Assembly (NCBI GenBank): GCA_964035545.1
Contig: OZ037767.1
Coordinates: 7,022,707-7,086,706 of the forward strand
DNA from: Bugula neritina
Lineage: Eukaryota; Animalia; Bryozoa
DNA length: 64,000 bases
Reading direction: 5' to 3'
A program made the position numbers and the translations under genes. Under the pieces are notes generated by a model. The model was given only the letters and a program-made list of their open reading frames with translations. It made no database searches and was not told the DNA's origin. Each line of letters begins with the position of its first letter. Position 1 is the first letter of the stretch. This document shows, piece after piece, positions 22,617 to 63,061 of this stretch.

Positions 22617-22732
22617 TGTTGAACTGTTGATAGTCAACAGTTAGCTTAGTGTTGAACTGTTGATAGTCAACAGTTAGCTTAGTGTTGAACTGTTGATAGT
22701 CAACAGCTAGCTTAGTGTTGAACTGTTGATAG
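22601..22732 (+). repeat. 4 x 33-bp tandem repeat with an internal 9-bp inverted repeat, overlapping the NEK9 stop codon
   Basis: Unit TCAACAGTTAGCTTAGTGTTGAACTGTTGATAG; copy 4 has one substitution. Confidence 0.95.
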
Positions 22733-23039
22733 TCAGTTTAGGTGCAGTACTAGAGTATAGCCTGTGTTATACTGATACACACAATAAGTTGATTAATCTT
22801 CGTAATCTGTACCGACTTATTCATATCGCTGAGGTATACATCAAATGATACGAAAAGTTTATATAAAGTATAATGTAATACATTCACCACTGACCCATGA
22901 TTCGAATGGATCTATACAGGGTGCCCACCCTTACTAATAGATTTGCATTAACACCTGTGGTTGTGGTTTCATTTGATTGACACTGTTCCCATGCATTAAA
23001 TAAAAAATCCATTCCCATAATCCGAAGCATCTGAACGAA

Positions 23040-25519: not shown

Positions 25520-26533
25520 TGCCAACATCACTTCCCTTACACAGCTTTCTATTAAGTGGGATGCTATTAAATAATTGTGTTTATTTCCACTTGCTCACAC
25601 GCTATCCCTAGTCCTATTCATTGCTCAATACTACTGCATCTTCCTATAAACTATAATGCTATTATTTGTCTGCCATTGCATACAAATTTCATTTTAACAT
25701 GCTAGATAAGCACTTTAGGAAAAAGAGAAGATGAGAATGAGATTAACTAGTACTAATTAGTGGTACTGTAAGATAATAGGCTTTTTGCTATAGTCACCTA
25801 CTATGCTATATGCTTTTAAAAAGGTATCACAACATTTATATTATTCTGTTCCTCTGAATTTGTGATGCTGTTTAATTTTCTAAAATAAATATATAGCTAG
25901 TAAACAAACTGAGTGTTTTGATTGTGTAGTGCTTTGGCTGAGACAGTGACTAGACAAGAACAAACATTATACTTGTATTCTGGTAAAGAAATTCAAAATA
26001 TGATATTAACAGTTAGCTATAACATTACTTGTTCATGCCTAAATATATTAAATGGGGAGTAAGCATAGAAGTTTATATACAATTTCATAAAATTCCTTTC
26101 ACTTTTGGTAGAGAGTTGCTCAATCAAATAGCAATAGATATATTTTAGATTTTTAGAAAAGGATGGACACAAAATGTCAATAAATTAAAGATAATATGCT
26201 TCATATGCAAAATTCCAATAAACTTTTCTTTGCTGCGTAAATTAGGATAATTAACACACCTTTCAAATGTGGAAAAAATACAAACCACATGAAAACTATA
26301 ACATGTAAAGATTTCTTAAGCATTACACAACGCTTTTGAGATCAACATAAAAAATTAGTATTTGTATCTCTAGATATCTTAAGTATAAATAAATGAAAAT
26401 ATAAAATAAATTATTAAAATATAATCTCAATGACTAGATGCTGAAAATTTGACTATAGAGCAGACTCACAAAAAGTTCCTTTCAATGATTGTAAAAAGTG
26501 CATTCGTTCAATCACATGTTCTGTCGACTTTAA

Positions 26534-29500
26534 TTAGTCACTGTCAGTATCATAATCTAACTGACCATCAATATCACTGATCTCTATGTCAGGACACTGT
26601 AAGTCTTCACTAGCATGGAGGAAGTGACACTTTATAGGACAGTCGTCATTCGGTGGACGAGATGTATACATTCTCTCGTCAACCAGATCTTTGAATGAGA
26701 GAAAACTGAGCAGTGTATCCGGTAAACGTGTACGTAGTTGAGAGCACTTGTCAGGGAAGGAAGAGATGCAGTTGAAGAGTTTAGCTCGACTCAACTCTTT
26801 GAGAGATAGAGGTGATGATGATAATTCTGTTAGCCAATCACATACCTTCAGCTGCAAACAGTGATTAGATGAGAAATATTGTGTCATAATACATTGCGTG
26901 ACAGTATGAGATCCAATTTAATATCCCCCAAGTAACTTATGTATATTATGTTATGTATTGTCGTATAATGTATTATAATGCATTATATAAAATAATACAT
27001 ATATATGACGCAAAACACTATATGACACATTACATCATATAATGGTATATATAATATACACACACTTATGAAGCACATTATCATATTACTATAAACTATA
27101 CAGGTGATCGCAATGTTTTATTCACAAGAATTAAGCAGACCTTGTTCTGCAATGCCATGGGCCACTCTTTCCATTTTATCCAATCACTATTGAGACTTGA
27201 AGGATTGACATAGATGAGAAGTTTCATGAGGTTTACGAGGCCTGCTTCAGCTGCTAGAGAGACATAGCCCGACTCAAACTTGCAGCCCCAGTGAACCAAG
27301 GCTAATGAGCACTCTTCATTCAGCAAAGATATAGCATGGTGCAAAAGCTTCCTGCCCTGTTTGTCAGGCTAGAGATAAATGGGAACATATAAAGGAATGC
27401 CACTTCACTACATGCATGGAAGTAGGGAAATAAGACTTTTCTAGTTCCTTATTTACGTGAAAACTTTAAGTTCCAGCCAAGTTAACAGAAATTTAATTCA
27501 AATTATTAATAATCATGGGGCAGTAGAATAATTAGCGGGTTATAATTTTATATGATTAAAATATATGATACCAACTGGGTTATTATCAACTATCAAGGTA
27601 AACACGCCAAGCCCCTATGAACTGACAAAAATTCACGTTTAAATAATCCAACAGAGTTTTGACTTTTTTCCAATTTTGTTCATGCCTTCTTATAATAGCC
27701 GGTGTTTACACTGAATTTCACAATGTGTTTTCATGTGTGTGATATGTAATAAATCAATCATTTATAATTGTATCTCACTTGGCACTCCATACATAACAGT
27801 GGATTTGTTACATAACCAAGAATTGTATTAAGCCAAAACTCCATAAATTCCTGTTTCAAATTTCTAAGCAGTTTGAATAAATCATCAGCTAATAATTGAT
27901 TAATTAGAATTACTTTAAGTTGAAGTCACAATTGAGTTATATAATATAAAGCTAAAACTTTGACAAATATAAAGTATTTCAATGCTATCACCTAGTAGAT
28001 GTATATAATAAGGAAACCAGTTTCAATCCTGAACTATTAGTTGTCATAGAAAACTTGATGTTACTATAGAACTGAAATTCTATTAACAAACTAAACACTT
28101 ACTTTGTTAATATTATAACCATTTCTTACAAGACATCTAATTATAGAAGGCTTGGAGAGCTCAACAGCAATCGAAATGGGTGACATACCACTTTCGGATG
28201 CAACGTATTTCCGAGCATTGCTACGAAGTAGGAACTCTACTATAGAATATCTAAAAAATAAATATATACCAATCAATTCACAACACAACCTCATCAAACA
28301 TCAAAGTCTAACAATATTTAAATGGAACATTGAATAGAGAAAAGGCAATTGTTTATTAAAACATTAAATCATATTTTATTCAAATTAATAATTAAAATAA
28401 AAGATTCTTTACAAATTAATACGCAGCAAACCTTTCATAAGCGACAGCAAAATGCAAAGCAGTAAAACCCTCTTGTGTTCTGTGGTTTATGTTGCATAAG
28501 GATTTCACTAACAGTTGGCACATCTCAATATCATCTTTCAGGACGGCCCTGAAACAAACATATTTGTAAAACATGCAAAATTTAAAACAACTTCAAATAA
28601 AATCATTATTTCAAAATTCCATCAGTATACACTTTTGTACGTGTTTCCACTTTACCGAAGAATTTAAGAACTTCAAATGAAATGGCAATCATATTAAACC
28701 TCCATTATTCAGTCAAAAAGTAATATATTTGGTCAATTTCTCTAACTGTTTAAGTTTCAATACTGCTACAACCATAAAACTAGAGTTGTCAAAACCTATA
28801 ACAACAAATTTATGACTTTTAAATGTACTCTAATATAATGCTTGCTTCCACAATGTTGAAAATAACTCAATTACATGACCAATTTATCACAAGAACTCAC
28901 AATATCAAAGGAGTCTCAACCTCAGTGCTACAATCCAAACTGAATTGGTTGACGTTAGCTCCGCCCGAGATAAGGAGAGCAGATAACTCTAAGGATTGTG
29001 CCATCACAGCTCTGTATAGTGGAGTACAACCTAAATAAGACAAAGCCTCATAATTGTTAGTATATGTATTAAGAATATTATCATAGAACAAACCAGGCCC
29101 TTTCTGGTTTAAAGTACCCTAATAAAACTTTCCTTATAAGCATTCACTGCTAACTTAACTTGTGAATTATTAATGTTGTAGGTACAGTTCAAAACTTAAA
29201 TATCCATGAACACAATCGTTAAATCTTGAAAATATTTTGCCTAACCAAAACTGCAAGTGCTTCTATTATACTTAAACTCACTAAAAAACATTTTAAGAAC
29301 TATAGGTGCATTTGAGAGCATTTCTCTACAGTTGTATAAAACATGCATTACGTGAATATAACTGTATATGCATGACAAGTGACACATTAACCCTTTGCAC
29401 CAGTATACATTATATGTAGTGGACATATAAGCAAGCAAAGAGTGCAAGCAGTGAAGCACGTGCTCTAGTCTTACATGACAAAAGTAGAGTGTAAAAGCGA

Positions 29501-30179
29501 ACTTAGACACTACTAAAATATGAGCTGGTACCTCCACTTACTTTGTAACCTCTCTACCCACAAGAGCAAAGGCTATCTAAAAGTACAGGAATCGCTACAT
29601 GAACCCATTGGCTTTATGAGAAGGTACATGGTAAGTTGTATAGTGATAGAAACATTATGTAACAGCATGCACCTGTTATCTTGTCAGTAAAATCAACTTC
29701 ACACTTGAACTCGTTAACAAGAAGCTCAGCCAGTTCTACATTGCCATGGTGCACCGCCCACCTACAGAGGGAACACAACTCATTACAATATGGGCAAAAT
29801 TCATACTGAGTAGGGAACATGAAAGTTCGCCAAATATTACGAGTGTACAATAGGATACAATGCAAAGATACAGTCAGCTTAGATAACAGAAGAAAATCTT
29901 GTAGCAAACTTACCAAATAGCTCGTCTGCCATTTTGATCGCTTTTGTTAACATCAGCACCAACAGGCTTGGCTTCAAGCAGAGCTCGAGCTAAATTTATG
30001 TTTAGATTTTCACAGGCGTATATTAAAGCTGTGGGATGAGAAGGCTGCCGTATGTCGCCAATATTTGGGTCAACCTTCTCTCTCTTCATAATGTATTTGA
30101 GTGCTTTCAGCTGATTATTGTAAACAGCATCAAAAAATTTAACAGCTGCTGGTGAAGGTAGAGAAGCTGATGATGACAT
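26534..30179 (-). CDS. Ankyrin repeat and SOCS box protein (ASB-like), about 431 aa, 7 coding exons
   Basis: Exons 30179-29914, 29761-29673, 29030-28901, 28548-28432, 28250-28103, 27368-27141, 26851-26534; phases match. Ankyrin motifs TALIYA, GCTPLYRA, ETPLILA, GFTALHFA; SOCS box SPLSLKELSR...LPDTLLSFL. Confidence 0.9.
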
Positions 30180-30480
30180 GTCAATAGTTTGAAAATGTGT
30201 CTCTTTCACAATTGCTAAAAATTATAAACATAAACAAATACAGTTTTGCTCAGATATTAAATTTACTTGTGAGTAGCTCTCCTTCTACAATTTTGTTTGC
30301 AACTAAATATTTCAATAAATTGCAACCTTTGCCAAAAATACTTATCATCCTGAGTATGTATGTTGACATTATAAATAAACAAAGATTGACATTAATAACA
30401 TATTACAGAACTTTAGAAGCAAAAGTTGAATAGAAGGCTTTTGCTGTGACAGAATGACACAGTAATGACTGAATTGACTT

Positions 30481-31047: not shown

Positions 31048-32897
31048 CCTGTCGAAATACCTGTCGAATTCTTCTTCACACTGGACAACCCAAATGGATC
31101 AAAGGAGTGTGCCACATTCTTAACCAAAATTTACATTTTTAGGTCAGTAATCAGTAAGTGTGCTTAAAACTAATTTGCAGTGGAGTCAGAACAGGTAAGG
31201 TTAACCTGTCTGTGGTAAGTATGCTGTATTACATTGTGTTGCTGTCTGTTATTGAGGATTTAATCTTCATGTCTCTGATGGTTCTTGGTAGAAAACTATT
31301 GTGATAATTGCTATAATTAGTCGTAACTGATCGAGGAACTCCTTGGGCCTGGGATCTGGTTAGAACTGTAGATGATGTTTTGTTGACTATGTGATCATAA
31401 GATTTGGAGAGTGCTGGGTGGTGCTCCTCCTTGAACAGAATCAGGATAAGCAGGCAGAGGCGCTTGTTCCTCCTTCTGGATGCCAGCGGGGTCAGCCCAA
31501 GCTTTTCCATAGTTAGACTCACATCTTCCCGTCCTTTTATGTTGGCGATAAAACGAACAGCATCTGTCTGTACATTCTCTAGAGTGGCGATATCTTTCTT
31601 GCAGACGGGGTCCCAGACTGCGCATGCATATTCCAAGTGAGGCAAACATAGTGTTTTGTATGCAATGAGACGAGCGTGTTGTGGTGCCCAAAATAGAGCT
31701 CGTTTGATTATGTCTAAGTGTCTCTTTGCTTTTGCAACTTTAGTGTTAATGTGAGCATCAAACTTACAGTCAGATTTGAGCAGAACTCCTAGATATTTTG
31801 CGGGATTAACATGCTCCAAGACTAAACCATTAAGTGTGTAGTTTGGTAGATTTTGCGTTGGGTTGAAAGCCATAATCTTACTTTTGGAGATATTGAAAGA
31901 CATGCCCCACTTGTTGGCCCATATTCCTAACTTGTCGAGATTATGTTGAAATCTTTTGGCATCAACTGCAGAATTGACTGGCTGATACAAAAGAGTATCA
32001 TCGGCGAAGAGTCCAACAGAACAATCAAGGGAATTTGGCAAATCATTGATGAAGATCAGGAATAGGATTGGTCCAAGCACAGATCCTTGTGGAACTCCTG
32101 ATGTTACCGACAGTGGTTCTGAGATGTGACTCTGAAGGACAACGCATTGAGATCTGTTCGTCAAGAAGTCTGATATCCAGCTGAGAAGATAATTGCCAAT
32201 ATCGCCAATTGCCGCCAGTTTTTGCATCAGTAGCACATGGGGTACTCGATCAAACGCTTTTGTAAAGTCTAGAATTGCAGCATGGACACTTTGACGGGTG
32301 TCAATAGTTTGGAGTATGTCCTGCATTGTAGCGCATAATTGTGTTTCACACGACAGACCTTTTCTGAAGCCATGTTGACGGTTGTGTAATAGTTTATCAA
32401 CTTTTTTGAGCAGAAATCTCAAAACAAGATGCTCTAGCATTTTACAGGGTATACTGGTTAGCGATATAGGGCGGTAGTTATGAACACACTCCTTTGGTCC
32501 AGATTTGTGAAGAGGGGAGACATTGGCTGTCTTCCAGCTAATTGAGAGGTTTCCAGATTGCAGTGACACATTGAAGATGCGACTGAGGCATTCAGCAGTT
32601 TGCTCTGGAACAATATTCAAATGTGCTCTGCAGATTCCATCAGGACTGGGAGCTTTACCAGGTTTGAGCGTTTTATGAGGCTCAGAACGCCCGCAGGGGT
32701 GATGACTGGGACCTCGGGAAAAATTTGAGAGCATTTTGCAGTAAGCTGAATATCACAACTGAATTGTTGGTGAAAGTATTTATTGAGCAAGTTGGCACAA
32801 ATTTTGGGGTCTGTTACATGTTTCCCTTCAGGTGCGACGAGTGTGATTTGGTTTTGAGATTGGGTGAGTCCTTTTAAGTGTCTGTAGAAGTTGGTAA
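31048..32897 (-). mobile_element. 5'-truncated non-LTR retrotransposon (CR1/L2-group LINE)
   Basis: RT-containing ORF2 without the endonuclease domain. ACTTACA duplicated at 31041-31047 and 32898-32904 (TSD). The 3' tail is two copies of ACCTGTCGAA on a 12-bp period (31047, 31059). Confidence 0.9.
31229..32897 (-). pseudogene. LINE ORF2 reverse transcriptase, truncated and with one frameshift
   Basis: Motifs NYRPISLT, QHGFR, LDFTKAFD, GVPQGSVLGP, FADD, KYLG. The upstream segment (NFYRHLK...ANLLNKYF...VLSLIK) is in another frame and joins at the A-run near 32670-32674. Confidence 0.9.
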
Positions 32898-33059
32898 ACT
32901 TACAGTTGCAGTATGAGTATTGATATTAATTATAATTACTGTATAAAATTAAAAGCAACTCAAACTAAAACTTAAACTGTAAGTCAAAGTCAAAGTGTAA
33001 ATAACTAAATTTTAATTAAAACTGTAATTCAAATTGCGACTGTGAGTAATTGCGGATAT

Positions 33060-33451
33060 TGTGGTAAAATTATGTTGTGTGTGTGTGTCCTTTGTTACCG
33101 AGATCGGTACTTCGGTCCTCCGAAACACCGATATGCCGATTCTCGGCATATCGGAATACCGAAGTACCGAAATGCCGGATTCGGCATTTCGGATTCCCGA
33201 AGTACCGATATTCGGTATTTCGGGCCTCCGATCTCGGCAAACAAAGGAATGTCTTTGTCCTGCATGTATATAAAAGCCAGCAAGTTCCAGTATAGTTCAG
33301 TCTACTACTGGAGCTCGCTGGATAAAGACCATTGATTCACTCGGACTATACTACAATAAAGATTATCTACATTTTACCTTATTTCTCGCCTTGTTTCTCA
33401 TACAAGCATGTAACAGCACTAGTTTCATTCACAATCCACAAAACTATCACA
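33060..33451 (+). repeat. 5' LTR (392 bp)
   Basis: TGTGG...TCACA; TATATAAAA at about 33267; AATAAA at 33355. Differs from the 3' LTR at two positions by eye. Confidence 0.98.
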
Positions 33452-33452
33452 T

Positions 33453-33472
33453 TGGTGGCAGCGGTGGGATTC
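33453..33472 (+). promoter_or_regulatory. Primer-binding site complementary to the 3' end of tRNA-Leu
   Basis: TGGTGGCAGCGGTGGGATTC is the reverse complement of GAATCCCACCGCTGCCACCA, the 3' end of metazoan tRNA-Leu(AAG/TAG). It starts 1 nt after the LTR. Confidence 0.9.
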
Positions 33473-33502
33473 TACGAATAGCTAGTTGCTAAGAGAAATA
33501 GG

Positions 33503-34402
33503 ATGGCCCCAGGGGGCCCAGCCCCTGAGGCAGCAGCACCACCAGCCCTCACTATTGAGGCGCTGGTCACAGCCCTCCAGGGATTGCGGGGGCAAGGACA
33601 GGCAGCACCTGGTGACAGGTATCGCCTCCAGCCCCCGACTTTCGGAGGAGATGGAGACGTGGAACAGTTCATCAAAGAGTTTGAGGACGTGGCCGCCACC
33701 GCTGAATGGCCAGTACGGGTGCGCGTCCTCCAACTCCGGGCCTGCCTGACAGGCCGGGCCAGGAACTTCGCACTGGGACCCGACGAAGCCCACATCCTGC
33801 GGGCTCTTAGGGCCCGGTTCGGGTTGACCACGGAAGAGGCGTCAGACCAGCTACAAGTGATGAGGAGAGACCGAAGGACATCTCTGGAAGATCACGCTAA
33901 CGAGGTAGAGCGCCTGGCTCAGGCTGCTTTCGGTCACGCCACTGGCGACGATCGGAAGCGCCTCGTTTTTAACGCGTTCTTCCGGAGTGTGAACCACCCG
34001 GACCTCCAGCGGTACTGGCTAGCCGCGAAAGTCAAGAGCCTGGACGAAGCACTAGAGATGGGGAAGGCCTACTTCCAGGTGGAAGAGCCACGGAGGGCGA
34101 ACTACGCAGCTCGCCAGGTGGCCGGAGATGCAGAAGAGGTACCCCCAACCCCACAAGTGGCAGCAGCAGCTACCCCGTCGCCTGAGCAGACGCAGCTCAA
34201 CATGCTGATGAGCATGATGAAAGGCCTGCAGGCTACGGTGACGGAGTTGCAGCGCAACCAGACGGACAGGCGGGCTCCCCGCTCGCGGGACGACCCTGTC
34301 CGCCCCCCTATGCCCACTTGCTGGGAGTGCGGGATGCCAGGACATGTGAGAAGGCACTGCCCTAAGGGACAGAAGCCTTTAAACACCCGAGGCTCACGGT
34401 GA
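33503..34402 (+). CDS. gag: Gag (299 aa) with a CCHC zinc knuckle
   Basis: First ORF after the PBS; capsid-like PPTFGG..VEQFIKEFE..W region; CWECGMPGHVRRHC knuckle. Confidence 0.93.
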   Translation: MAPGGPAPEAAAPPALTIEALVTALQGLRGQGQAAPGDRYRLQPPTFGGDGDVEQFIKEFEDVAATAEWPVRVRVLQLRACLTGRARNFALGPDEAHILRALRARFGLTTEEASDQLQVMRRDRRTSLEDHANEVERLAQAAFGHATGDDRKRLVFNAFFRSVNHPDLQRYWLAAKVKSLDEALEMGKAYFQVEEPRRANYAARQVAGDAEEVPPTPQVAAAATPSPEQTQLNMLMSMMKGLQATVTELQRNQTDRRAPRSRDDPVRPPMPTCWECGMPGHVRRHCPKGQKPLNTRGSR

Positions 34403-34421
34403 ATTCCGCCACCCGTGGGCC
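34378..34421 (+). promoter_or_regulatory. Programmed -1 ribosomal frameshift signal (gag to pro-pol)
   Basis: T TTA AAC heptamer in the gag codon phase at 34378-34384; 6-nt spacer; stem GGCTCACGG (34391-34399) with CCGTGGGCC (34413-34421). The -1 frame is the protease frame. Confidence 0.85.
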
Positions 34422-35550
34422 CCACGCCAATCCGGTCCGGGATAGGACTCGGAAGACAACAGAAGAGACCTCTCCAGAGTCGACCTACATCGAGTGGCAC
34501 GCAAACCGGAGATCTCGGAGACCGAAAGGCCTACCCGATCCTCCTGCCCTGCCACTCGATACCCGGATGGAACTAGAAGAAACCGGATGGCAGGCACCTC
34601 GGAGATCTCGGAGACCGCAAGGTCTACCCGATCCTCCAGCCTGGCCACTCCGTAACCGGTTCGCGGGGTTGCCCGAGGAGGTTGTGGAGGAGGATTCAGC
34701 TTACTCGCAAGAGTATCCCGAGCTACCCTTCCGACCTCAGAAAACCCCCGTTGTCTCTAAGACGAAGAGGAGGCCCGCTGTGCGGACCCAAGTCGTGTCT
34801 CCCCCAGAGACTGACCGCTCCAGGAGCACCCAGCCGTATGGAAGCAGCTACTTCCTGCCCGGAAAGATTTCGGGTAAAGCTGCCACATTCCTACTGGATA
34901 CTGGGTGCACTACCAACCTGCTGAGTAGGCGTCTCTTTGACACCCTTGGTGCACGAGAGCGGGCGAGCCTCGAGCCGTATGAAGGTGCGCATGGTACGTT
35001 GGCGGACGGATCATGCATTCCTTTCTACGGCGTCATTTCACTACCTGGACGCGTCCGTGATCAAGCCGTTCACGAGACGTTCATAGTCAGCCAGCTGAAG
35101 GAGGACGCCATCTTGGGAATGCCCTTCCTGGAGAAACACCAGTGTCACATGGATTTCCAGAAGTCAGTGGTGGTGATGGCTGGGAAGGAACTTGTCTGTG
35201 TTGACAAGTTTGGCAGGCCCTTGGTGGGCGGAGTCCAGGTAGTGCGGGACTGCACAGTTCCGGGGAGGTCCCAGGCGACTCTCCGATGCAGAGTCAACTG
35301 CAAGGAGATCGCCGGCCTGGGGATGGTTGAAGGAACGCACGGAGCCATCCGACTAGCAAACAGCCTGAATAGGCTAGATTGTCGGCAAGAGCTCCTCGTG
35401 CAGTGCATCAACCCCTTCACGGAACCTGTCCGATTATCGGCCGGAACGATGGTGGGGAAGTACCACTCCATCCAGGAAGCGGATGTGGGTCCGGCGCTGG
35501 AGACAGTGGCCGACACCCAGAGAAACCCCCCTCACACCAGACGTGGCTGA
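34378..35550 (+). CDS. pro: Pol N-terminal part: aspartic protease (entered by -1 frameshift)
   Basis: FLLDTGCT catalytic motif and DAILGMPFL; open from the slippery site to TGA 35548-35550. Confidence 0.9.
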   Translation, partial: FKHPRLTVNSATRGPHANPVRDRTRKTTEETSPESTYIEWHANRRSRRPKGLPDPPALPLDTRMELEETGWQAPRRSRRPQGLPDPPAWPLRNRFAGLPEEVVEEDSAYSQEYPELPFRPQKTPVVSKTKRRPAVRTQVVSPPETDRSRSTQPYGSSYFLPGKISGKAATFLLDTGCTTNLLSRRLFDTLGARERASLEPYEGAHGTLADGSCIPFYGVISLPGRVRDQAVHETFIVSQLKEDAILGMPFLEKHQCHMDFQKSVVVMAGKELVCVDKFGRPLVGGVQVVRDCTVPGRSQATLRCRVNCKEIAGLGMVEGTHGAIRLANSLNRLDCRQELLVQCINPFTEPVRLSAGTMVGKYHSIQEADVGPALETVADTQRNPPHTRRG

Positions 35551-38500
35551 CCTGTATGGCGGAGCATGCGGAAACTGTACGAGTAGTACTGAACGCCAAG
35601 TACTGGCTCAACTACTCGCGGAGTACAGTGATGTCTTCAGTCGTGGCGATGGAGACATGGGGCTGACTAAGGTTATCTCCCACGAGATACCTCTGGCAGC
35701 CGGCACCACTCCCATCAGGCAGCCTACCCGACGTCTGGGCCCGGAGAAGGAGAAGGAGGTGAGCCGACAGGTACAGGATCTTCTGGACCGGGATCTGATT
35801 GAGCCTGCCCACGGTGCGTGGAGCTCCCCAGTGGTCCTGGTCAAGAAGAAGGATGGTAGCTGGAGATTCTGCGTGGACTACCGCAGACTCAACAGCGTTA
35901 CCATCCAGGACGCCTACCCTCTCCCACGGATAGATGAGTCTCTGGATGCCCTCGCGGGTAGCAAGTACTTCAGTACTTTGGATCTGCTTAGCGGGTACTG
36001 GCAAGTGCCCCTCAGTCCTGATGCCCAGGACAAAGCAGCATTCAGTACTCGCGACGGGCTCTGGAAGTGGAAAGTACTGCCATTCGGACTAACGTCCGCT
36101 CCGGCAACATTCCAACGGCTCATGGAGCAAGTCCTCAGTGGGTTACACTGGAAGACCCTCCTCATCTATCTGGACGATGTCATTGTCATCTCCCCAGACT
36201 TTTCGACTCATGTCAGTCGTCTGCGGGAGGTCTTTGACCGTCTCCGGGCAGCCGGACTGAAGCTGAAGCCCTCCAAGTGCGCACTCCTGCAGCCAGAAGT
36301 CACATACCTGGGCCATGTGGTTGGCCGTGATGGGGTCGCTACCGATCCAGAGAAGGTACAAGCTGTGAAGGAGTGGACTGTCCCCCGCGACCTCTCTGAG
36401 TTGCGTGCATTCCTGGGCCTAGTAGGGTACTACCGGCAGTACATACCTGGTTTCGCAGGAGTGGCTCAGCCGTTAAATCGGCTGACCGCAAAGGGAGTCC
36501 AGTGGCAGTGGACACAGGAGGAACAGCAGGCATTCGACCACCTCAAGCAACGACTAATGGAAGCGCCAATCCTGGCGTATCCTGATCCAGCCAAGGAGTA
36601 CATCCTGGACACCGACGCCAGCGACCACAGCGTGGGAGCCGTCTTGTCTCAAGTCCAGGGTGGAAGTGAGGTGGTCGTGGCTTACTATAGCAAGACTCTC
36701 GCGGCCGCCGAGAAGAACTACTGCACCACTAGGAAGGAACTCCTAGCAGTAGTCAAGGCGGTCAAGCACTTTCGGCCATATCTGTATGGGAAATCGTTCC
36801 GTCTGCGAACAGACCATGCATCACTGATATGGCTGTGTAAACGTGCAGAGCCCTCGAGCCAGGTGGCTCGTTGGCTAGAGATTCTTGCTGAGTTCTCTTA
36901 CCGGATAGAGCACCGTGCAGGCCGGAAGCATGGGAACGCCGACGGCATAAGCCGCCGGCCGGTAGAGGACTGTAAGCAATGCCTACACATTGAACAGCGG
37001 GACGGGGGACCCGCTCGCCTTGACGTGGAAGCAGGACTAGTGGAGGGCACCACCTACCAGTGGGAGCACGGCCATCTTCGGACCGAAACCCACCAGGACG
37101 GTGTCCAGGCACTCCACGCCAACCCTACTCTGCACCAGAACGTCAAGGAGCTGTGCCGACTCCAGGAGACGCTACCCGGCGCGGTAGCGGACATCTTCCG
37201 GGCCAAGAAGGAGGGCCGACGGCCTAGCGAGGAACAGCAGCAACAGGGGGACGTTGAGTTCCAACTCCTCTGTCGTCGCTGGGATGCCCTCAAGGTCAGT
37301 CCCGATGGCCTCCTGATGATAACGTTAGCAGCAGACAACCGCCAGCAGAAGAGGGACCGCGTCGTCTGTCCACGCGCCCTCCGGCGGGAACTGATCTGGG
37401 ACACCCATAAGCAGGCTCATGCTGGAGTCAGTCGGGTCATCAGGTGTCTGCGGCTACGTTGGTATTGGCCCGGAATGACTCGGGACGTACGACTGCGGGT
37501 ACGGCAATGCGAGGTCTGCCAAGCTAGCAAGCATGGCCGCCCCACGGAAACCACTGGTCGACGCCGGCTGTACGCTGGTCGACCGTGGCAAGTAGTGGCG
37601 GTAGACCTCGTCGGGCCTATGCCGTTATCCGCCAGAGGGAACACCTGGATACTGGTGCTCACGGACCACTTTACCCGGTGGGCGGATGCTCTGGCTATTC
37701 CAGACGCCACCGCCCCCACGGTGGCCCGGACCCTGGACCAACATGTATTCTGTTACCTCGGTTTGCCCGAGCAGATACATACAGACCAGGGTGCCCAGTT
37801 CCAGTCCCAGCTCATGGGAGACCTCTGCCGGATATGGGGGGTGAACCAGAGTCGGACCACCCCATATCACCCGCAAGGGAACGGAGTCGTCGAGCGGAAC
37901 AACAGGATGTTGGGTGACGCGCTCCGGAGCCTGCTGCTTGGTCGAGGTCAGGAAGAATGGGACGTGGTGCTGCCGCAGATCATGCGGGCTTACCGCAGCA
38001 CACCACACTCCGCCACGCAGGAGACCCCAAACTTCCTGATGTTAGGCCGAGAGACGCGGGTCCCGGAACACCTGACGTACCATGTTCCTGCCCCCGAGTC
38101 ACCGGTACACGAATATGTGGAGGGTCTGATGGACATCATGGGCAAAGCTCATGATGCGCTGCGCACCCAGCAGTGGCAGACCCGCACAGAGGACTCAGAG
38201 GAGCCCCCGTTGTACCAAGTGGGAGACTGGGTCTGGATGGTGAGTTACCGTAGGCGGCGCGGACAGTCGGCTAAGCTTCAGCCCAAGTTCGTCGGCCCCT
38301 ACTGCGTAGTAGAGGTGCTGCCCAACCACACATACCGTGTGGAGCGCTCTGGACAGGTCTCTGTCCAGAGCGAGCAGCGCCTCAAACCTTACCATGCCAG
38401 CCCAGACGCGGTGGGTCAGGCTCCACCCCTCTTGGAGCCCCACCGTCAGCCCAACCGTCGTGGACGGGCCACCCAGCCCCGTGAGGTGGAGATTATGGTC

Positions 38501-38809
38501 CCCAGGGAGGCGGACCAGGAGCAGGCTGCCCTGATAGAGCAGCTGGAGCGACAGCAGAGAGCGGAGCGGGAGCAGGAACAGCGGCAAGCCCTTGGATCAC
38601 AACCCTTCCTGGGGGAGGACACCCCCACCCCCGTACGGGGTGAAGACGGGGACCCCCCTACTAGGGCAGCCCAGGAGCCACCAACACCATCAGAGTCTGT
38701 TCCACTTGAGAGGAGCCAGCGGCCAAGAAGACCTCCCAGGTACCTGGCAGACTATGCTGTGGGGCACCTGGAGGGGCCCCCTCCTGAGGACGACCCCCCC
38801 CCACACTGA
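35483..38809 (+). CDS. pol: Pol: reverse transcriptase, RNase H and integrase (+1 frame relative to protease)
   Basis: RFCVDYRRLN, LPFGL, YLDD (RT); ILDTDAS, RKELLA, RTDH (RNase H); H-x3-H...CEVC, VDLVG/TDQG/VERNN (DDE) and GPY (integrase). The real homology starts near 35540; the GTG at 35483 is not a likely start. Confidence 0.95.
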   Translation: MWVRRWRQWPTPRETPLTPDVADLYGGACGNCTSSTERQVLAQLLAEYSDVFSRGDGDMGLTKVISHEIPLAAGTTPIRQPTRRLGPEKEKEVSRQVQDLLDRDLIEPAHGAWSSPVVLVKKKDGSWRFCVDYRRLNSVTIQDAYPLPRIDESLDALAGSKYFSTLDLLSGYWQVPLSPDAQDKAAFSTRDGLWKWKVLPFGLTSAPATFQRLMEQVLSGLHWKTLLIYLDDVIVISPDFSTHVSRLREVFDRLRAAGLKLKPSKCALLQPEVTYLGHVVGRDGVATDPEKVQAVKEWTVPRDLSELRAFLGLVGYYRQYIPGFAGVAQPLNRLTAKGVQWQWTQEEQQAFDHLKQRLMEAPILAYPDPAKEYILDTDASDHSVGAVLSQVQGGSEVVVAYYSKTLAAAEKNYCTTRKELLAVVKAVKHFRPYLYGKSFRLRTDHASLIWLCKRAEPSSQVARWLEILAEFSYRIEHRAGRKHGNADGISRRPVEDCKQCLHIEQRDGGPARLDVEAGLVEGTTYQWEHGHLRTETHQDGVQALHANPTLHQNVKELCRLQETLPGAVADIFRAKKEGRRPSEEQQQQGDVEFQLLCRRWDALKVSPDGLLMITLAADNRQQKRDRVVCPRALRRELIWDTHKQAHAGVSRVIRCLRLRWYWPGMTRDVRLRVRQCEVCQASKHGRPTETTGRRRLYAGRPWQVVAVDLVGPMPLSARGNTWILVLTDHFTRWADALAIPDATAPTVARTLDQHVFCYLGLPEQIHTDQGAQFQSQLMGDLCRIWGVNQSRTTPYHPQGNGVVERNNRMLGDALRSLLLGRGQEEWDVVLPQIMRAYRSTPHSATQETPNFLMLGRETRVPEHLTYHVPAPESPVHEYVEGLMDIMGKAHDALRTQQWQTRTEDSEEPPLYQVGDWVWMVSYRRRRGQSAKLQPKFVGPYCVVEVLPNHTYRVERSGQVSVQSEQRLKPYHASPDAVGQAPPLLEPHRQPNRRGRATQPREVEIMVPREADQEQAALIEQLERQQRAEREQEQRQALGSQPFLGEDTPTPVRGEDGDPPTRAAQEPPTPSESVPLERSQRPRRPPRYLADYAVGHLEGPPPEDDPPPH

Positions 38810-38873
38810 CTGTCACCCCATCTTGGTTGGAAATTCCCTCCATCACCCCGGAGAATTCCACCAAGAAGAAGAA

Positions 38874-40343
38874 ATGGCCGACCGAATTTCGGAAGACACT
38901 CGATCACGCGAGTTGTCTTTTCAAAATCCGGGGGAAATTCCCACGAGCCACGCGACTCGGACTTCAGCAGGTAAAACTTCTGAAGCACGAGGTTCGGCCA
39001 TTTCTCATTCTGACTTCACACGGCTCGCACGGCAGTTGCAACTCAAACTAAATTCTGATTCTAATACTCATTTTGATTTTATCACTGTTCTCCGTACGCT
39101 ATCAGCAGCTATGGGAATTACTCTACCAGATACACAATCAGGTATTTCTTCTAGATTAGATCCTCCAGTTGCGGAGTCTAGTCAAACTACAGTAGACTGG
39201 TCTTTACTAGACTTACTTGGTTCTGATTTCTTAGAACCGGAGGCCGAGATGGATCTTGGAGATGACTCTGCCATTGATACTTTGTTGAATCACGATGTAG
39301 GCTCAGTCAATTTCTGCGATACACCTCGGCCCTCGGTTTTTAACTTATCTCCATACACACCTGTGCCGAATTTCGGCGATAGTGAGACCGGCTTCTCACA
39401 GCCTCTACTATCTATTCTAGAGGAGCGAATGGACGTTGAGGAGGCCAGTCGGTCCGACTCCCCTCTCCCACCGGCCCTTGCTTCGGCTTCTACCAGCCAG
39501 CAGGCCGCCACCTCCTCCACAGAGGTGTGTTCCGCCATCGTTGGCCCTGACCCCAAACCGGTCGAGCTTCAGCTCACGGCCGGGGAGGAGCAGGGCATCC
39601 TACACGGCGACCACCTGCCAGCAGAAGAAGATACCTCCCCAATACTGGCCCTGCCTCGGGCCCTGGTCGCCCGCCAGTATTGAGTGACTGGACCCACCAA
39701 TCTAAAAATTGGCGATGCTTGCGGTGAGCCGGGCAACCGCATCTGCCATGAGTGTAAGAGGAAATTCTCCTCTGCACGGCGGCTGCGCGTACACGCCCCA
39801 CAGCACTACATCAACGTGTTTTGCCCGTGTGGGGAGTTCTCCTACCAGAGAGACTATGTGTTGAGACATCAACGCATAGCTCACTGCCACACGGGCTACA
39901 CGTTTGCTGTAGACCAGGCCTCCTTTCCCGAATTTCGGGACCTGGTGCTGCCACACGTGGCGGATCCCCACAAACGGGCTGCTCTCGCCCTGGGATTCCC
40001 CGCGTGTAGGCCTGTTCGGGAGGAAGAAGGGGAGCCCGCCGCGACACCCCAACCGGCAGCCACCCAGCCACTTCGGGTCATGCTGGCACGGGTCGGACCA
40101 GGTGCCAGGGCCGATTCATCGGACCTGGGCCCCCGACCCTCGGCGGCGGGCGAGAAGCAGACGCACCGCCAGCGACGTCCTGCCCGTGGTACCACCGACC
40201 ACCCTAGGCACCAGACGTCGGCTCAGTTGGCAGAGGAGGTACACCAGTTACGCCGGCAGCTCCGCCGATATGAAGAGGAGCTGGGGCAACTCCGGAGACG
40301 AGTTAGCCGCCTGGAGCGGGGTCGGTCTGGCGACCGCCGCTGA
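38874..40343 (+). CDS. Retrotransposon ORF3: acidic region + two C2H2-type zinc fingers + coiled coil, interrupted by one in-frame TGA (39681-39683)
   Basis: GAAATGG start at 38874. Track ORFs 38592-39683 and 39684-40343 are in the same frame and abut. CHECKRKFSSARRLRVHAPQH (C-x2-C-x12-H-x3-H), CPCGEFSYQRDYVLRHQRIAH and the heptad repeat LAEEVHQLRRQLRRYEEELGQLRRRVSRL. Confidence 0.8.
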
Positions 40344-40624
40344 GACTATTTGTATAGTATTTTCTTTCCTATTCTTATTTTTTTTTTTGTTTATTATATG
40401 TGTGTAAGTTCTTCATGTAATGTATGTACCTACTCATGCTCTGTTTTTCTTGTGTGTGCACAAATTTTTCCTGTTTTTTTTTGTTATCATTGTATTATTA
40501 CTATCACTGCATGTTTACCATATTTTTTTCTGTGTGTTACTTTCAACTGTGTGTTTTATTGTCGTGTCATTCCCTGTTGTGTGTTTGTGTTGTGTACGCC
40601 TCTTTATCGGAAAGCATGCTTTCC

Positions 40625-40637
40625 GATGGGGGGTGTG
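40625..40637 (+). promoter_or_regulatory. Polypurine tract region
   Basis: GATGGGGGGTGTG immediately 5' of the 3' LTR. Confidence 0.75.
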
Positions 40638-41029
40638 TGTGGTAAAATTATGTTGTGTGTGTGTGTCCTTTGTTACCGAGATCGGTACTTCGGTCCTCCG
40701 AAACACCGATATGCCGATTCTCGGCATATCGGAATACCGAAGTACCGAAATGCCGGATTCGGCATTTCGGATTCCCGAAGTACCGATATTCGGTATTTCG
40801 GGCCTCCGATCTCGGCAAACAAAGGAATGTCTTTGTCCTGCATGTATATAAAAGCCAGCGAGTTCCAGTATAGTTCAGTCTACTACTGGAGCTCGCTGGA
40901 TAAAGACCATTGATTCACTCGGACTATACTACAATAAAGATTATCTACATTTTACCATATTTCTCGCCTTGTTTCTCATACAAGCATGTAACAGCACTAG
41001 TTTCATTCACAATCCACAAAACTATCACA
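40638..41029 (+). repeat. 3' LTR (392 bp)
   Basis: Direct repeat of 33060-33451, followed by TSD ATAT. Confidence 0.98.
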
Positions 41030-42243
41030 ATATTAACTGTAGAGTTTCATAATCTTTCATTATAAAAAATTCCACAACTACACTAATAAACTTGCCACAA
41101 CTATTCCATTGCAATTACTAAATTAAAATTAGCATTAACCACTAGGACTAGTAATAGTAGCAGCTGTAGGGACTGGGCCTAAAATAAATGTATTTTTGTC
41201 ACCAACAGATGTCACGCGGCAACATAACTTATGTGTTGAAGTGGTTTTGTAGCCATCCTCATCGAAAAAAATGTAAATTAAATTATTTTAATAAATGTTT
41301 AAAATTAAATTTAAAATTAGCAAAAATTTCAATAATTCAAAAAAAATTTACGGTTTTTAAAAATGCTAAAGTAATAACATTAATATTGTAGCACCCCAGT
41401 TTTTAATCGCTAATTTTCAGCACGAGAACTTGGCTAGCTGAATTGCAGATCGCAGTTGCCATTGCAAATGTGAAATACTAAATAGTTATCATAACATTGG
41501 TGATTGCCATTTTAATTGCTGAACAAAATTTTTATCAGCAATTGAAAGCAGTTGCTGTAAGCTATTTTTATTAGCTTCTCTAAGGTTTAACTTTAAATTA
41601 TAAATATAATAATTTTAATTTAAACTTTAATTATTTATTTAATTAATAATTTTATAATTATATTAATATTAAATTATTAAATTTGATATTTATTTATTAT
41701 ACTTTTAGTTTTACTCTTGTAGTAATACTAATTGTTAATTTAAATGCCATATTGATGTTCATCTTTATATTGAATTGTATATCTATATAAAATTAAATGT
41801 GTTTATTTTATTCAATTATTGCGGTTGCCCAGCCCCATGGGCCATGGCCATTGGATTTGCCATTTGGTATATTAATTTATAATTAGAATTTATGTTCATG
41901 ATAGTTGAAGTTCATGTTGATATACTTCATTAATTAGTTTTCCAGTCTTTAAATAAATTTAACTCCAAGCTTTAAACTTGAATTCTTAAAGGAAAATGAA
42001 CTACATAATCATATTCATAACGATAATTATCTTAAACTGAAACTTTTAGGCAAATGTCAACTATTTGGCTAGTAGTACTACTACTAGTAATAGTACATTT
42101 ACTATCAATATGTTAATGATGTTTATAGTTTAGACTTTAGAACAATAGTATAATTAGTATGTTTATACAAGCGAAATTCTATCATTAAATCTATTTGTGA
42201 CAACATTTGTTCAACCAAAAATCTCTATTTTGAAAATTTAAAT

Positions 42244-42953: not shown

Positions 42954-45900
42954 ATGGCAGACGAAGTGTCAAATGGTCCCGATATGCCAGCAGCTACCAC
43001 TGTTAATGAGCAAGCTATTGAACAAGCTGAGAGAGTCAAGGAAACTGCCAACGAGTACTTTAAAAGTAAATGCACAAATACTATAATTATTGCCATACAC
43101 TTTATGATAATACTAAGAGTCTGTCCATATCTGTACGTTTCTGTTAAAATTGCATTTATTTTACATCATCTCTGTTTTTAAGAACTGGTGACGTTTACAA
43201 ACAAGATACCTCTTGCATTTTCAAAAACATCTAAATTATTAAATATATATTACGTTCAAAATGCAATATGCAGAGTTTCACCAGTCAGAAGATAGTCGTG
43301 TTGAAAACAATACTGTTTTATTTGTTTTTCATATTGATTTATGTTATTAAGACGGCAGATATCAATAGTTTTTTTCTATGAGAATGTCTCAATATGGACA
43401 GACCTTAGTAGTAGCACAGTACCAGAAGCAGTATTACTTCCTTAATACTTGAACTTTTGCAATAAATTGATCAGTCTGACTCATGAACTACTGAAATACT
43501 ACTATAAACATTAGTCAATTTGAGGTAATAGAAGGGATAAATTTAGAATTATTTTCATAATCATATTTTTAAAGTCATAGAATAACATATTTCCTTGTAT
43601 GGATTTATAGTTATGTCTAATCAATATACTGATAATACATGTGTGCCAAAATTAGTAATACCAAAACAGGGTTACGACTACTAATAATTATTATTAAATC
43701 AATTATGTTTTTTCACACTTGCAATTAGTATTTGCAAGAGAAATTTGCAAATATTTCCAGTTAATAAGAACAATAAACTTATTCAGTTACTTTTCTTTAC
43801 TGACTAAATATTAATGTTTGCAGTAGGGTAGGTCTATTTAGTTTCAAACTTTTAAAATTTCCTAAAAATCAAGTTTTCATTGAATTTATAAAGTAGTGTA
43901 GTTATCCGATTGAATTTTAATAACTTTGACAACTTTTTTTTTCAAGAATTCATGTTTTGATTGGCAGGTATTTAATGAATATTTGTAGGAATATGTGGGC
44001 CCAGTTGTGTCCTTAGACTTAAGATACATGTATGGTTACGGTTACTGCTCTCTCCTCCCTAAAGCCGGCAAACTTGAATTTTGTAGATCAAAACTATGAC
44101 GAAGCTATCAAGTTTTATACTCAAGCTATTGAAATCAACCCAAATGTTGCTGCATATTATGGAAACAGGTCTTTTGCATATATTAAAACAGAATGCTTTG
44201 GCTACGCCCTGGAAGATGCAAACAAAGCCTTGCAGCTGGACCGAGCTTTCTTAAAGGTGAGAACCAGGTTAAAAATGTTTCCATTTTTTCAAAAGTTGTC
44301 TTGCATTTAAGAGACAGTCTAACAGTCTGTTGGAACGATTATTCAAGATTCTTTAAATTATAATTTGTGATTTTTACTGGTTTTCCGGTAAATATATTAT
44401 GTTATAAGTAAACACTGCTGTAGTAAGTAGCTAGTAGCTGCTAAAGGAAATTTTGTATTTGAGTTTTTTTTGTTAGTCAGTATTTAGTCTATTGATTTAG
44501 TTGAATGCATTGAATCATTTTAGTGAAGTATCCAAAACTGTCAAAGTTTAATATCGTTCTTTTTGTAAAACTTTTGTACTATGCATCCACCACTAAAAAC
44601 TTTGTATTGTAAGTTGACACAGTTTCTTGTTCTAATCAATAAGATAATTTAGTTGACTAGTTGAATTTAATTCTACCTGTTGTTGGTGTAATTCTAGTGT
44701 CATGCCTTTGGCATTTTTATTAACCATGAAATATTCCTGTATATATAACGGTTTTAACTTTGAAGATGATCATAATGACAGTTGAGATATTAATGTAAAT
44801 GTTTAATAAGGTTTAGCTTATACGGCCTCAAAACAAAGAACAGATGTTCTAAGCTACCTGTTAGAGGGTTTGTGCCGAATACTTACTCTGTTTCACGTGA
44901 TATACTTGTAGGCTTACTATAGAAGAGCGTGTGCTAACATGGCGTTAGGAAAATTCAAGTTGGCTCTAAAAGATTTTGAAGCAGTGAGTCTAAAACTATT
45001 GATAGCGTCATTATCATTTACTGGTTACATACAATATGTCTCGTGAGGATAATTTCTTTCTGTGTTCAAAGACCCTAATCCGTAGTGTTAAACCAGTGGG
45101 TGAAACTGCAACAGCTACCAGCATAGCTGCTGTGTTTCACATTCCGCTCTGTTGCTAGCATTGATCAAGGTTAAGGGCCATGGCTTACCATCAAGGAGTT
45201 GTAATTCCATGGATATAAGTTAACTTAAAGTAGTTTTTGGTTAAATTGATAACGTTTGTAAAAGCCAGTCTTCATTTACAAATATTGTAGTCAGTTAATG
45301 TTTGCAATGCTGTTCAGGTTCATAAAGCTAGACCCAATGATAAAGATGCTAAGAATAAATACAAGGAGTGCGACAAAATCGTGAAGCAAAAGGCGTTCGA
45401 GAAAGCGATTTCCGTGGATTCTAAGAAGACTGACTTAGCCTTAGATATAGAGTCTACACTTGATGCATTGAGTGAGTGGGCAGCTTGCAACACTACTTAT
45501 TCCCAATACTGCTTACATATATGTCTACCGTGCCTATGTACTCATTTTACAATCTCAATAATATCACAATATTTGTTTAGTAAGTCTAGCTGTAAAACAG
45601 ACATTTATTACAGGTTTACATACTGACTTGAAACGCCAAAATATTACAAACGTAATATGCTGTTGTGTTGGTAAATAGTTTTGATTGCTGAACTCTATCT
45701 GGTTTTATTCTTCCTTGAAACAGCCAACATCACTACTGCCAGTTTACTTGCTGTAGGAGTACCACCTGAATATGATGGACCTCATCTAATCAATGGCCAA
45801 GTGACTGAAGAGTTTATGGAGGATTTGCTGATAGCTTTCCGAGACTGTAAGAAGCTTCACCAGAAATATGCATATCAGGTATTTACAACCCACAGTACGA

Positions 45901-51636: not shown

Positions 51637-63061
<11,425 letters not shown>

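What the first reader, a model, noticed from the sequence alone, without database searches (positions are those of the whole stretch)
33060..41029. Candidate new system: a Gypsy retrotransposon encoding its own zinc-finger/coiled-coil regulator plus a matching operator array
Three independent observations converge. (1) ORF3 has the layout of a dimeric transcription factor (acidic/LxxLL region, C2H2 fingers, coiled coil) and none of env (no signal peptide or TM helix seen). (2) U3, just upstream of the TATA box, is a dense array of CCGA/TCGG half-sites. (3) The dyad CCGA-N3-TCGG is repeated through the element body, most densely in ORF3. A coiled-coil dimer reading inverted half-sites at fixed spacing is an established logic (GAL4-type factors), and self-encoded transactivators are known in complex retroviruses (Tax, Tas). 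A sequence-specific, CpG-site-binding anti-silencing factor (compare VANC of plant VANDAL transposons) is an alternative. I know of no described equivalent in an animal Ty3/Gypsy element, but I cannot search. The link between the protein and the motif is inference.
Basis: inference. Interest (0 to 1): 0.87.

Follow-up and report, generated by a model that had tools for sequence, protein, structure and literature searches.

The report
Gypsy retrotransposon with zinc-finger regulator gene
A young jumping gene in an invertebrate genome carries a conserved extra gene for a two-zinc-finger, coiled-coil protein and a conserved palindromic CCGA/TCGG array in its promoter, and the protein likely binds that array to keep the element active, which would be a self-made control switch not found in our literature searches for animal elements of this kind.

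Summary
This is a 7,970-bp Ty3/Gypsy element (LTRs differ at 2 of 392 bases, 4-bp target duplication) with a non-env third ORF. The dyad CCGA-N3-TCGG occurs 10 times inside and never in 56 kb of flank.

New here: (1) The ORF3 module is an unnamed, conserved family: 124 close homologs in two clades, 323 representatives, and bryozoan gene models. (2) The U3 array is a nested palindrome (z -12.8). Among other copies its CpG cores vary at 4 of 76 positions, its spacers at 20 of 66. (3) ORF3's disordered linker keeps an HP1-box-like motif in both clades. 

Corrections: U3 is mainly an 8-bp periodic array (N3 dyad at 2 of 18 junctions). Gag-pol enrichment alone is weak. This copy is broken (stop in ORF3, frame break in pol). 

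The protein-motif link remains inference: no relatives' DNA was obtained, so co-variation is untested. Best reading (0.42): ORF3 binds its own motif and favours expression in a methylating host. Rivals are a host-read array, an RNA export role, and self-repression. Close analogues exist (Sirevirus palindromes, VANC, CERV). Verdict: new variant of a known kind.

The parts
33056..33059 (+). left copy of 4-bp target-site duplication (right copy 41030-41033)
33060..33451 (+). 5' LTR (392 bp), TATA at 33267, AATAAA at 33355
33088..33248 (.). U3 nested palindrome: 19 CCGA/TCGG-type half-sites at mostly 8-bp period; outer stem plus three arms
33453..33470 (+). primer-binding site, tRNA-Leu type
   Evidence: the same 12-mer is assigned to tRNA-Leu with one mismatch in supplements of PMC13524379
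33503..34402 (+). gag with zinc knuckle; dyad at 33635; slippery-like heptamer near 34378 (read by eye)
34366..35550 (+). protease frame (-1 to gag); dyad at 35430; 72-nt duplicated unit 34495/34588
35378..38809 (+). RT-RNase H-integrase frame; out of frame with the protease near 35540 in this copy
38810..39110 (+). lower-GC (48%) spacer, open in the ORF3 frame; dyad at 38882; branch-point-like and yAG signals just before Met 39111
39111..39680 (+). ORF3 N-part: acidic, LxxLL; dyad at 39366; ends at the in-frame stop 39681-39683
39684..40022 (+). ORF3 zinc module: helix, C2H2 finger, CxC..H..C finger, strand, two helices; dyad at 39928
40065..40094 (+). HP1-box-like linear motif in the disordered linker
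40095..40343 (+). basic patch, dyad at 40133, and C-terminal coiled-coil helix
40606..40633 (+). perfect 22-bp palindrome with TCGG/CCGA ends (40606-40627) followed by the G-rich polypurine tract
   Evidence: read directly
40638..41029 (+). 3' LTR with the second copy of the array

Best explanation
This Gypsy element carries a conserved non-env third gene whose zinc-finger module likely binds the CCGA/TCGG sites of its own LTR and body, likely as a coiled-coil dimer or oligomer, and would thereby keep the element transcribed in a host that likely methylates CpG. Shown: the element, the conserved protein family, the motif enrichment, and conservation of the motif cores among copies. Inferred: separate expression from Met 39111 (perhaps by splicing), nuclear location, dimerisation, DNA binding to this motif, an acidic activation region, and an HP1 contact that would loosen or redirect heterochromatin at bound sites. 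This copy's own ORF3 is broken, so protein would come in trans from other copies.
For: Protein: 124 homologs from word searches, 76 of 124 with both fingers intact. Recognition-helix positions are nearly fixed in both clades (finger 1: R, R, V; finger 2: D, Y, R). All top-13 structural matches of the module are tandem fingers solved on DNA, though only Z 3.3-3.8 over about 50-57 residues. Acidic N-part and LxxLL-like motif in 24 of 28 clade-B and 2 of 5 clade-A members long enough to test. Coiled-coil-like C-end in 13 of 28 distant relatives vs 1.3 expected. 29 of the 40 longest listed homologs share one start Met; no Pol fusion found among 584-2000-aa proteins (weak).

DNA: dyad enrichment. 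Cores vary at 4 of 76 positions vs 20 of 66 in spacers, P 8e-5, despite being CpGs. Only 1 G-U in 65 pairs and equal folding of both strands suit a DNA-level symmetric element. Four of eight distinct dyads have 5-bp arms around a single base, too tight for a hairpin loop. In clade A the Arg at the 39928 site decays only to W (3) or Q (3) among 28, as a CGG codon would.

Precedent: VANC proteins bind short motifs that accumulate in their own transposon (PMC5735166).
Against: No relative's DNA was obtained, so co-occurrence of ORF3 with the array is untested. Only 2 of 124 close homologs carry a Gypsy pol tail that ties them to such an element. Clade B (51 of 70 rows) keeps nearly the same helices but lacks the peptide that fits the 39928 dyad. 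Finger 2 and the 5-residue linker are atypical, so the module may bind protein or RNA. Sireviruses without their extra ORF keep the LTR boxes (PMC2829016). VANC motifs lie in non-coding DNA, whereas 5 of 6 internal dyads here are in coding DNA, two in conserved peptides. An HP1 box more often means repression. The variant test uses non-independent contigs, essentially from one study, laid at 80% identity or more.
Confidence: 0.42

Rival explanations
1. The array is read by host factors (a small CpG island or a site for a host DNA-binding protein, as proposed for Sirevirus boxes), and ORF3 has an unrelated job, for example as a C-terminal extension of Pol that tethers integration to chromatin through its HP1-box-like motif.
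For: Sireviruses lacking the extra ORF keep LTR palindromes (PMC2829016). LTR CpG o/e 1.25-1.29. P0003 and P0004 run in one frame from a Gypsy pol tail into ORF3, and the window's ORF3 frame is open from 38538. Bryozoan gene models of the same family could be the true readers.
Against: A CpG island does not explain six fixed-spacing dyads in the body. No long fusion protein was found (weak). Clade B has its own conserved start.
Confidence: 0.23
2. The U3 palindrome works as RNA at the 3' end of the genomic transcript, and ORF3 is a Rev/CERV-like adaptor that binds it for export or packaging.
For: RNA fold -99.9 kcal/mol, z -12.8; still z -5.5 with cores fixed and spacers shuffled. Two partner pairs vary together in a way that keeps pairing and a wobble is resolved either way. 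Arg-rich patch plus coiled coil. CERV of Cer1 has a leucine zipper, NLS and Cys finger and is needed for export (PMC10309623).
Against: Any palindrome folds on both strands. Almost no G-U pairs. 10 of 17 variants at paired positions break the pair (mostly rare contigs). Cores are conserved as sequence. Internal dyads are too short for stable hairpins. Linkage of partner changes on one molecule was not shown. No Rfam match above chance.
Confidence: 0.17
3. ORF3 binds the same DNA sites but recruits HP1 to repress its own family, a self-limiting switch.
For: The only match of the published HP1a Access Code pattern in the 219-aa C-part is the conserved linker motif. Clade B shows P-R-V-x-L-x-R in 26 of 45 (0.05% in shuffles), the same residues named for KAP1's HP1 box (P486, R487, V488, L490, R492; PMC12126490). 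Sites spread through the body suit spreading of a chromatin state.
Against: Acidic N-part with LxxLL looks activating. The family is abundant in the three organism-A runs. The motif has 2 basic residues where the paper asks for 3-6, and the full published pattern fits only 1 of 45 clade-B members.
Confidence: 0.13
4. The array is a neutral by-product of tandem and fold-back duplication during reverse transcription, and the body dyads are coding coincidences.
For: 38-bp unit, 2.3 copies. Near-perfect symmetry could be kept by template switching. Two dyads sit in conserved peptides.
Against: Cores are far more conserved than spacers. Dyads exceed codon-matched expectation.
Confidence: 0.05

Closest known systems
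Sirevirus (plant Ty1/copia) repeated-motif boxes, PMC2829016
   Same: Palindromic CGG/CCG-core boxes clustered just upstream of the LTR TATA box, forming a CpG island; extra boxes at the 5' side of the additional ORF; an inverted repeat at the polypurine tract.
   Different: Copia, plants; extra ORF is env-like with no shown DNA binding; boxes persist without it. Here Gypsy, animal, zinc-finger ORF.
VANC anti-silencing proteins of VANDAL transposons, PMC5735166
   Same: Transposon-encoded protein plus a short motif accumulated in tandem in its own element (binding is shown for VANC, only inferred here).
   Different: VANDAL is a plant DNA transposon; AT-rich non-palindromic motifs in non-coding DNA. 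No homology detected by Pfam.
CERV of C. elegans Cer1, PMC10309623
   Same: Nuclear accessory protein of an animal Gypsy element with leucine zipper, basic NLS and a Cys finger.
   Different: Shares exons with gag, has a G-protein-like domain, acts in RNA export and is not needed for transcription.
Non-env ORF3s of bdelloid rotifer LTR elements, PMC5408684
   Same: Captured non-env third ORF downstream of pol in animal LTR elements.
   Different: GDSL esterase, DEDDy nuclease, coiled-coil or TM types; the word 'zinc' does not occur in the text.
Tax/Tas transactivators of complex retroviruses (recalled, no call)
   Same: Self-encoded 3' gene acting on own U3.
   Different: Retroviridae, unrelated proteins; not compared here.
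Bryozoan gene models XP_067940963/4, XP_067944745 (Watersipora subatra), KAF6040922/3 (Bugula neritina)
   Same: Same helix-finger-finger module (34-44% identity); some with a C-terminal coiled coil.
   Different: Annotated as uncharacterised cellular genes with isoforms, some with two modules or an extra shared N-domain. Direction of capture not resolved.

Membership tests
Ty3/Gypsy LTR retrotransposon | TG...CA LTRs, short target duplication, PBS and PPT | tested here: met
Ty3/Gypsy LTR retrotransposon | pol order PR-RT-RH-IN and Ty3-like RT | tested here: met
env-bearing Gypsy (errantivirus type) | third ORF is a membrane glycoprotein | tested here: not met
   max hydropathy 0.52/0.62; 3 of 124 homologs above 1.6; zinc-finger fold
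Classical tandem C2H2 DNA-binding factor | C-x2-C-x12-H-x3-H finger | tested here: met
   finger 1 in 92 of 124 homologs
Classical tandem C2H2 DNA-binding factor | second canonical finger joined by a canonical linker (TGEKP-type, recalled) | tested here: not met
   finger 2 is CxC-x12-H-x5-C with a 5-residue hydrophobic linker
Classical tandem C2H2 DNA-binding factor | fold matches DNA-bound finger pairs | tested here: inconclusive
   best Z 3.8, rmsd 2.7, 57 aligned; Foldseek E above 1
GAL4-type Zn2Cys6 factor | six-cysteine binuclear cluster | tested here: not met
   ligands are C,C,H,H and C,C,H,C; resemblance is only in the CCG/CGG half-site logic
VANC-type anti-silencer | protein binds a short motif of its own element | not testable with these tools
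   needs EMSA or ChIP
VANC-type anti-silencer | [quoted passage not shown] | tested here: inconclusive
   true for U3; 5 of 6 internal dyads are in coding DNA
VANC-type anti-silencer | encoded by a Mutator-like DNA transposon | tested here: not met
   LTR retrotransposon
Sirevirus | copia domain order, plant host | tested here: not met
Sirevirus | palindromic CGG/CCG boxes upstream of LTR TATA | tested here: met
HP1 chromo-shadow ligand (HAC, PMC12526061) | hydrophobic-x-V/I-x-aliphatic core with basic +4, conserved, in disorder | tested here: met
   core in 11 of 19 clade-A and 29 of 45 clade-B members vs 1.9% in shuffles; pLDDT about 50
HP1 chromo-shadow ligand (HAC, PMC12526061) | 3-6 basic residues between -4 and +4 | tested here: not met
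   2 in the window's motif
HP1 chromo-shadow ligand (HAC, PMC12526061) | binds HP1 | not testable with these tools
Rev/CERV-type export factor | made from spliced mRNA and binds genomic RNA | not testable with these tools
   only contigs were laid; acceptor-like signals seen

The most novel reading that the evidence does not exclude
A lineage of animal Gypsy retrotransposons encodes its own sequence-specific chromatin regulator: an undescribed two-finger module that reads CpG-containing CCGA/TCGG sites in the element, oligomerises by a coiled coil and contacts HP1, so shielding the family from host methylation. This would be an animal, retrotransposon counterpart of VANC, with the gene family shared between elements and bryozoan host genes.
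Probability: 0.33. Interest if true: 0.9.

Novelty: new variant of a known kind. Interest (0 to 1): 0.7.

Why it matters
How animal retrotransposons stay active against DNA methylation and HP1 silencing is largely open; the shown sequence-specific counter-silencer among the papers I read (VANC) is from a plant DNA transposon. Here a small protein module, a defined 4-bp CpG half-site and a candidate HP1 contact lie in one element, so the idea can be tested directly in vitro. Even if the link fails, the ORF3 module is a sizeable family with no Pfam model above cut-off for the window's copy and no close solved structure, shared between elements and host gene models.

Tried and rejected
No whole genome was held, so copies could not be compared in full. 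Scans for related loci gave nothing real: viral contigs (none confirmed; one GC-rich chance match, L003, no retroelement by tblastn), metagenome contigs (L001, antisense frame of a bacterial gene), genome contigs (L002, 16-residue match). No RNA holder was listed; this says nothing on expression. The 'longer' search found no Pol-ORF3 fusion (weak by the tool's own note). Foldseek on PDB and viral libraries: no match at E 0.001 or better. VIA on the whole piece returned only generic helices. Atlas: unnamed or generic C2H2 clusters. Rfam: chance hairpin only. The complex predictor was not available, so dimerisation was not modelled. Earlier findings: nothing shown. A zinc-finger code reading (finger 2 to G-N-A; A at that place in 12 of 18 U3 half-sites) does not extend to the internal dyads and is not used as support. 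A first count of HP1-box-like motifs in distant relatives (1 of 28) used a filter that dropped several distant members; the recount gave 7 of 40 vs 0.8 with a pattern tuned after looking, and 9 of 40 vs 4.9 (P about 0.04, one row in fact clade A) with the published pattern. The pol-tail-like motif in distant P0225 is not backed by BLAST. A BET ET-domain ligand reading of the linker motif is recalled only and was not tested. Literature: ten full-text searches showed no Gypsy C2H2 ORF3 with an LTR array; the library lacks most subscription papers and Repbase.
Full report
Element. The region 33060-41029 is a Ty3/Gypsy LTR retrotransposon. Its 392-bp LTRs differ at 2 positions and are flanked by a 4-bp duplication, so the insertion is recent. 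The PBS 12-mer is the one assigned to tRNA-Leu (one mismatch) in supplements of PMC13524379. Pfam gives zinc knuckle, protease, RT, RNase H and integrase in Gypsy order, and Ty3-G is the best solved relative. The copy is defective: the protease and RT frames do not join near 35540, and ORF3 has an in-frame stop at 39681-39683. 67 of the 124 close homologs run unbroken across that region, so the stop is a lesion. The family is abundant in three runs of one organism. The host was not identified; it is an animal with CpG-depleted DNA (o/e 0.43-0.44, TpG/CpA excess), and the named relatives of ORF3 come from bryozoans.

The DNA motif. CCGA-N3-TCGG occurs 10 times in the element and not in 56 kb of flank. 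The six internal sites beat all 1000 shuffles at k=2, 4 and 5 and rank first of 3,328 dyad/spacer tests. The three inside the likely coding part of ORF3 beat 2000 codon-matched resamplings. The two gag-pol sites alone are not significant if any spacer is allowed (P 0.06-0.07). In U3 the 19 half-sites follow an 8-bp period: 13 of 18 junctions have a 4-base spacer, 2 are N3 dyads and 3 are N2. The array is also a nested palindrome: -99.9 kcal/mol, z -12.8, equally on the other strand, with 1 G-U in 65 pairs, and still z -5.5 when only the spacers are shuffled.

Variation among copies. One search listed 32 difference rows; I used the 27 within the folded region, 24 of them inside 33097-33238. They fall at 4 of 76 core positions and 20 of 66 spacer positions (Fisher P 8e-5; 1 vs 15 for majority variants). 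Of 17 variants at paired positions, 7 keep pairing (two partner pairs, 33108/33166 and 33204/33216; a wobble resolved either way; one new wobble) and 10 break it, mostly in rare or single contigs. Linkage of partner changes on one molecule was not shown. The contigs are not independent, come essentially from one study, and X1 may be the source of the window. With those limits, the cores look selected as sequence, which favours a DNA-binding reader over a purely structural role.

The protein. Word searches gave 124 homologs, many of them decayed fragments; 92 keep finger 1, 95 finger 2, 76 both. A profile search found 323 representatives at E 0.001 or better. Among 70 members chosen for covering the module, the eight zinc ligands are kept in 68-70, and two clades at 44% median identity keep nearly the same recognition helices. 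The model of the module is confident (pLDDT 89.5, pTM 0.77): helix, finger, finger, strand, two helices. It has no close structural match; the top rows are DNA-bound finger pairs at Z 3.8 or less. There is no TM helix. The likely start is Met 39111: a clade-A relative begins at the same place, 29 of the 40 longest listed homologs share one conserved start, and acceptor-like signals precede it. Against this, two relatives run in frame from a Gypsy pol tail into ORF3, so a Pol fusion in some lineages is not excluded; the search of longer proteins found none (weak). These two are also the only direct tie of any homolog to a Gypsy element.

In the disordered linker (pLDDT about 50) ten residues are as conserved as the zinc module (0.69 vs 0.68; flanks 0.42-0.46). 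They are the only match in the 219-aa piece to the HP1a Access Code pattern of PMC12526061. The core occurs in 11 of 19 clade-A and 29 of 45 clade-B members that cover it (1.9% in shuffles; pattern written after seeing the alignment). Clade B has P-R-V-x-L-x-R in 26 of 45, matching the residues named for KAP1's HP1 box in PMC12126490. Against: only 2 basic residues where 3-6 are asked for, the full pattern fits 1 of 45 clade-B members, and enrichment in distant relatives is marginal with the published pattern (9 of 40 vs 4.9). Binding could not be tested.

Host genes. Of 20 distant or long members looked up, clusters with names were Watersipora subatra and Bugula neritina gene models. In a quick tree of 61 rows the element clades A+B form one group (SH-aLRT 97) and the bryozoan genes fall in three places with weak support. 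Capture from the host and domestication by the host are both open.

Mechanism. The simplest account that joins these facts is that ORF3 binds the CCGA/TCGG sites, cooperatively on U3 and as a dimer on isolated N3 dyads, and acts on local chromatin. I put DNA binding to this motif at about 0.55, split 0.42 activating or anti-silencing and 0.13 self-repressing. A host-read array with an unrelated ORF3 gets 0.23, an RNA role 0.17, neutrality 0.05. The deciding comparison, ORF3 presence against array presence in relatives, could not be run because no related locus was retrieved.

Comparison with print. PMC2829016 (passages): Sirevirus LTRs carry palindromic CGG-CCG boxes before the TATA box and extra boxes at their additional ORF, and keep the LTR boxes without it. 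PMC5735166 (passages): VANC binds short motifs in non-coding tandem repeats of its own transposon. PMC10309623 (abstract and section 9): CERV exports Cer1 RNA. PMC5408684, PMC7998251, PMC6338049 (passages): other accessory ORFs, no zinc-finger type. PMC13524379 (passages and two supplement hits): survey of env-bearing elements, 'zinc' absent from the main text. PMC12526061 (passages and section 19), PMC12126490 (passages), PMC13269885 and PMC13326412 (passages). Ten searches found no description of this ORF3 type; Repbase and most subscription papers were outside the library, and bioRxiv supplements were not available. Tax, Tas, GAL4 and the canonical finger linker are recalled, not looked up.

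Verdict. A real and unusual element: each ingredient has a precedent elsewhere, the combination in an animal Gypsy lineage was not found in print, and the key link is untested. New variant of a known kind; interest 0.70.

Noticed in passing
window 40606-40627: Perfect 22-bp palindrome with TCGG/CCGA ends directly before the polypurine tract.
   Followed up: no
window 33097, 33108, 33127, 33166, 33204, 33216: At six positions next to the cores this copy differs from many laid contigs in the same sense, as if the half-site flank had shifted in concert in one subfamily.
   Followed up: partly
window 34495-34566 and 34588-34659: 72-nt duplicated unit (83% alike) at the start of the protease frame, rich in TCGG/CCGA half-sites.
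   Followed up: no
window 31229-32925 (-): Non-LTR retrotransposon RT remnant (Pfam RVT_1) just left of the insertion.
   Followed up: no
P0225, P0218, P0203, P0210, P0230: Distant ORF3 relatives share an aromatic-x-I-P-basic motif (5 of 40 vs 0.1 expected; pattern chosen after looking), partner unknown.
   Followed up: partly
P0252, P0256, P0184: Bugula and Watersipora gene models share an extra N-terminal domain with no Pfam match; two are adjacent loci in Bugula.
   Followed up: partly
P0255, P0138, P0256: Three family members carry two copies of the zinc module.
   Followed up: no
window 7800-9450, 11900-22600, 26500-30200, 44000-49100, 51600-63100: Compact intron-rich host genes that look like a fatty-acid elongase, a NEK9-like kinase, an ankyrin protein, protein phosphatase 5 and glycogen phosphorylase (named by eye, no database call).
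   Followed up: no
window 22601-22735: 33-bp tandem repeat, 4.1 copies, 99% alike.
   Followed up: no
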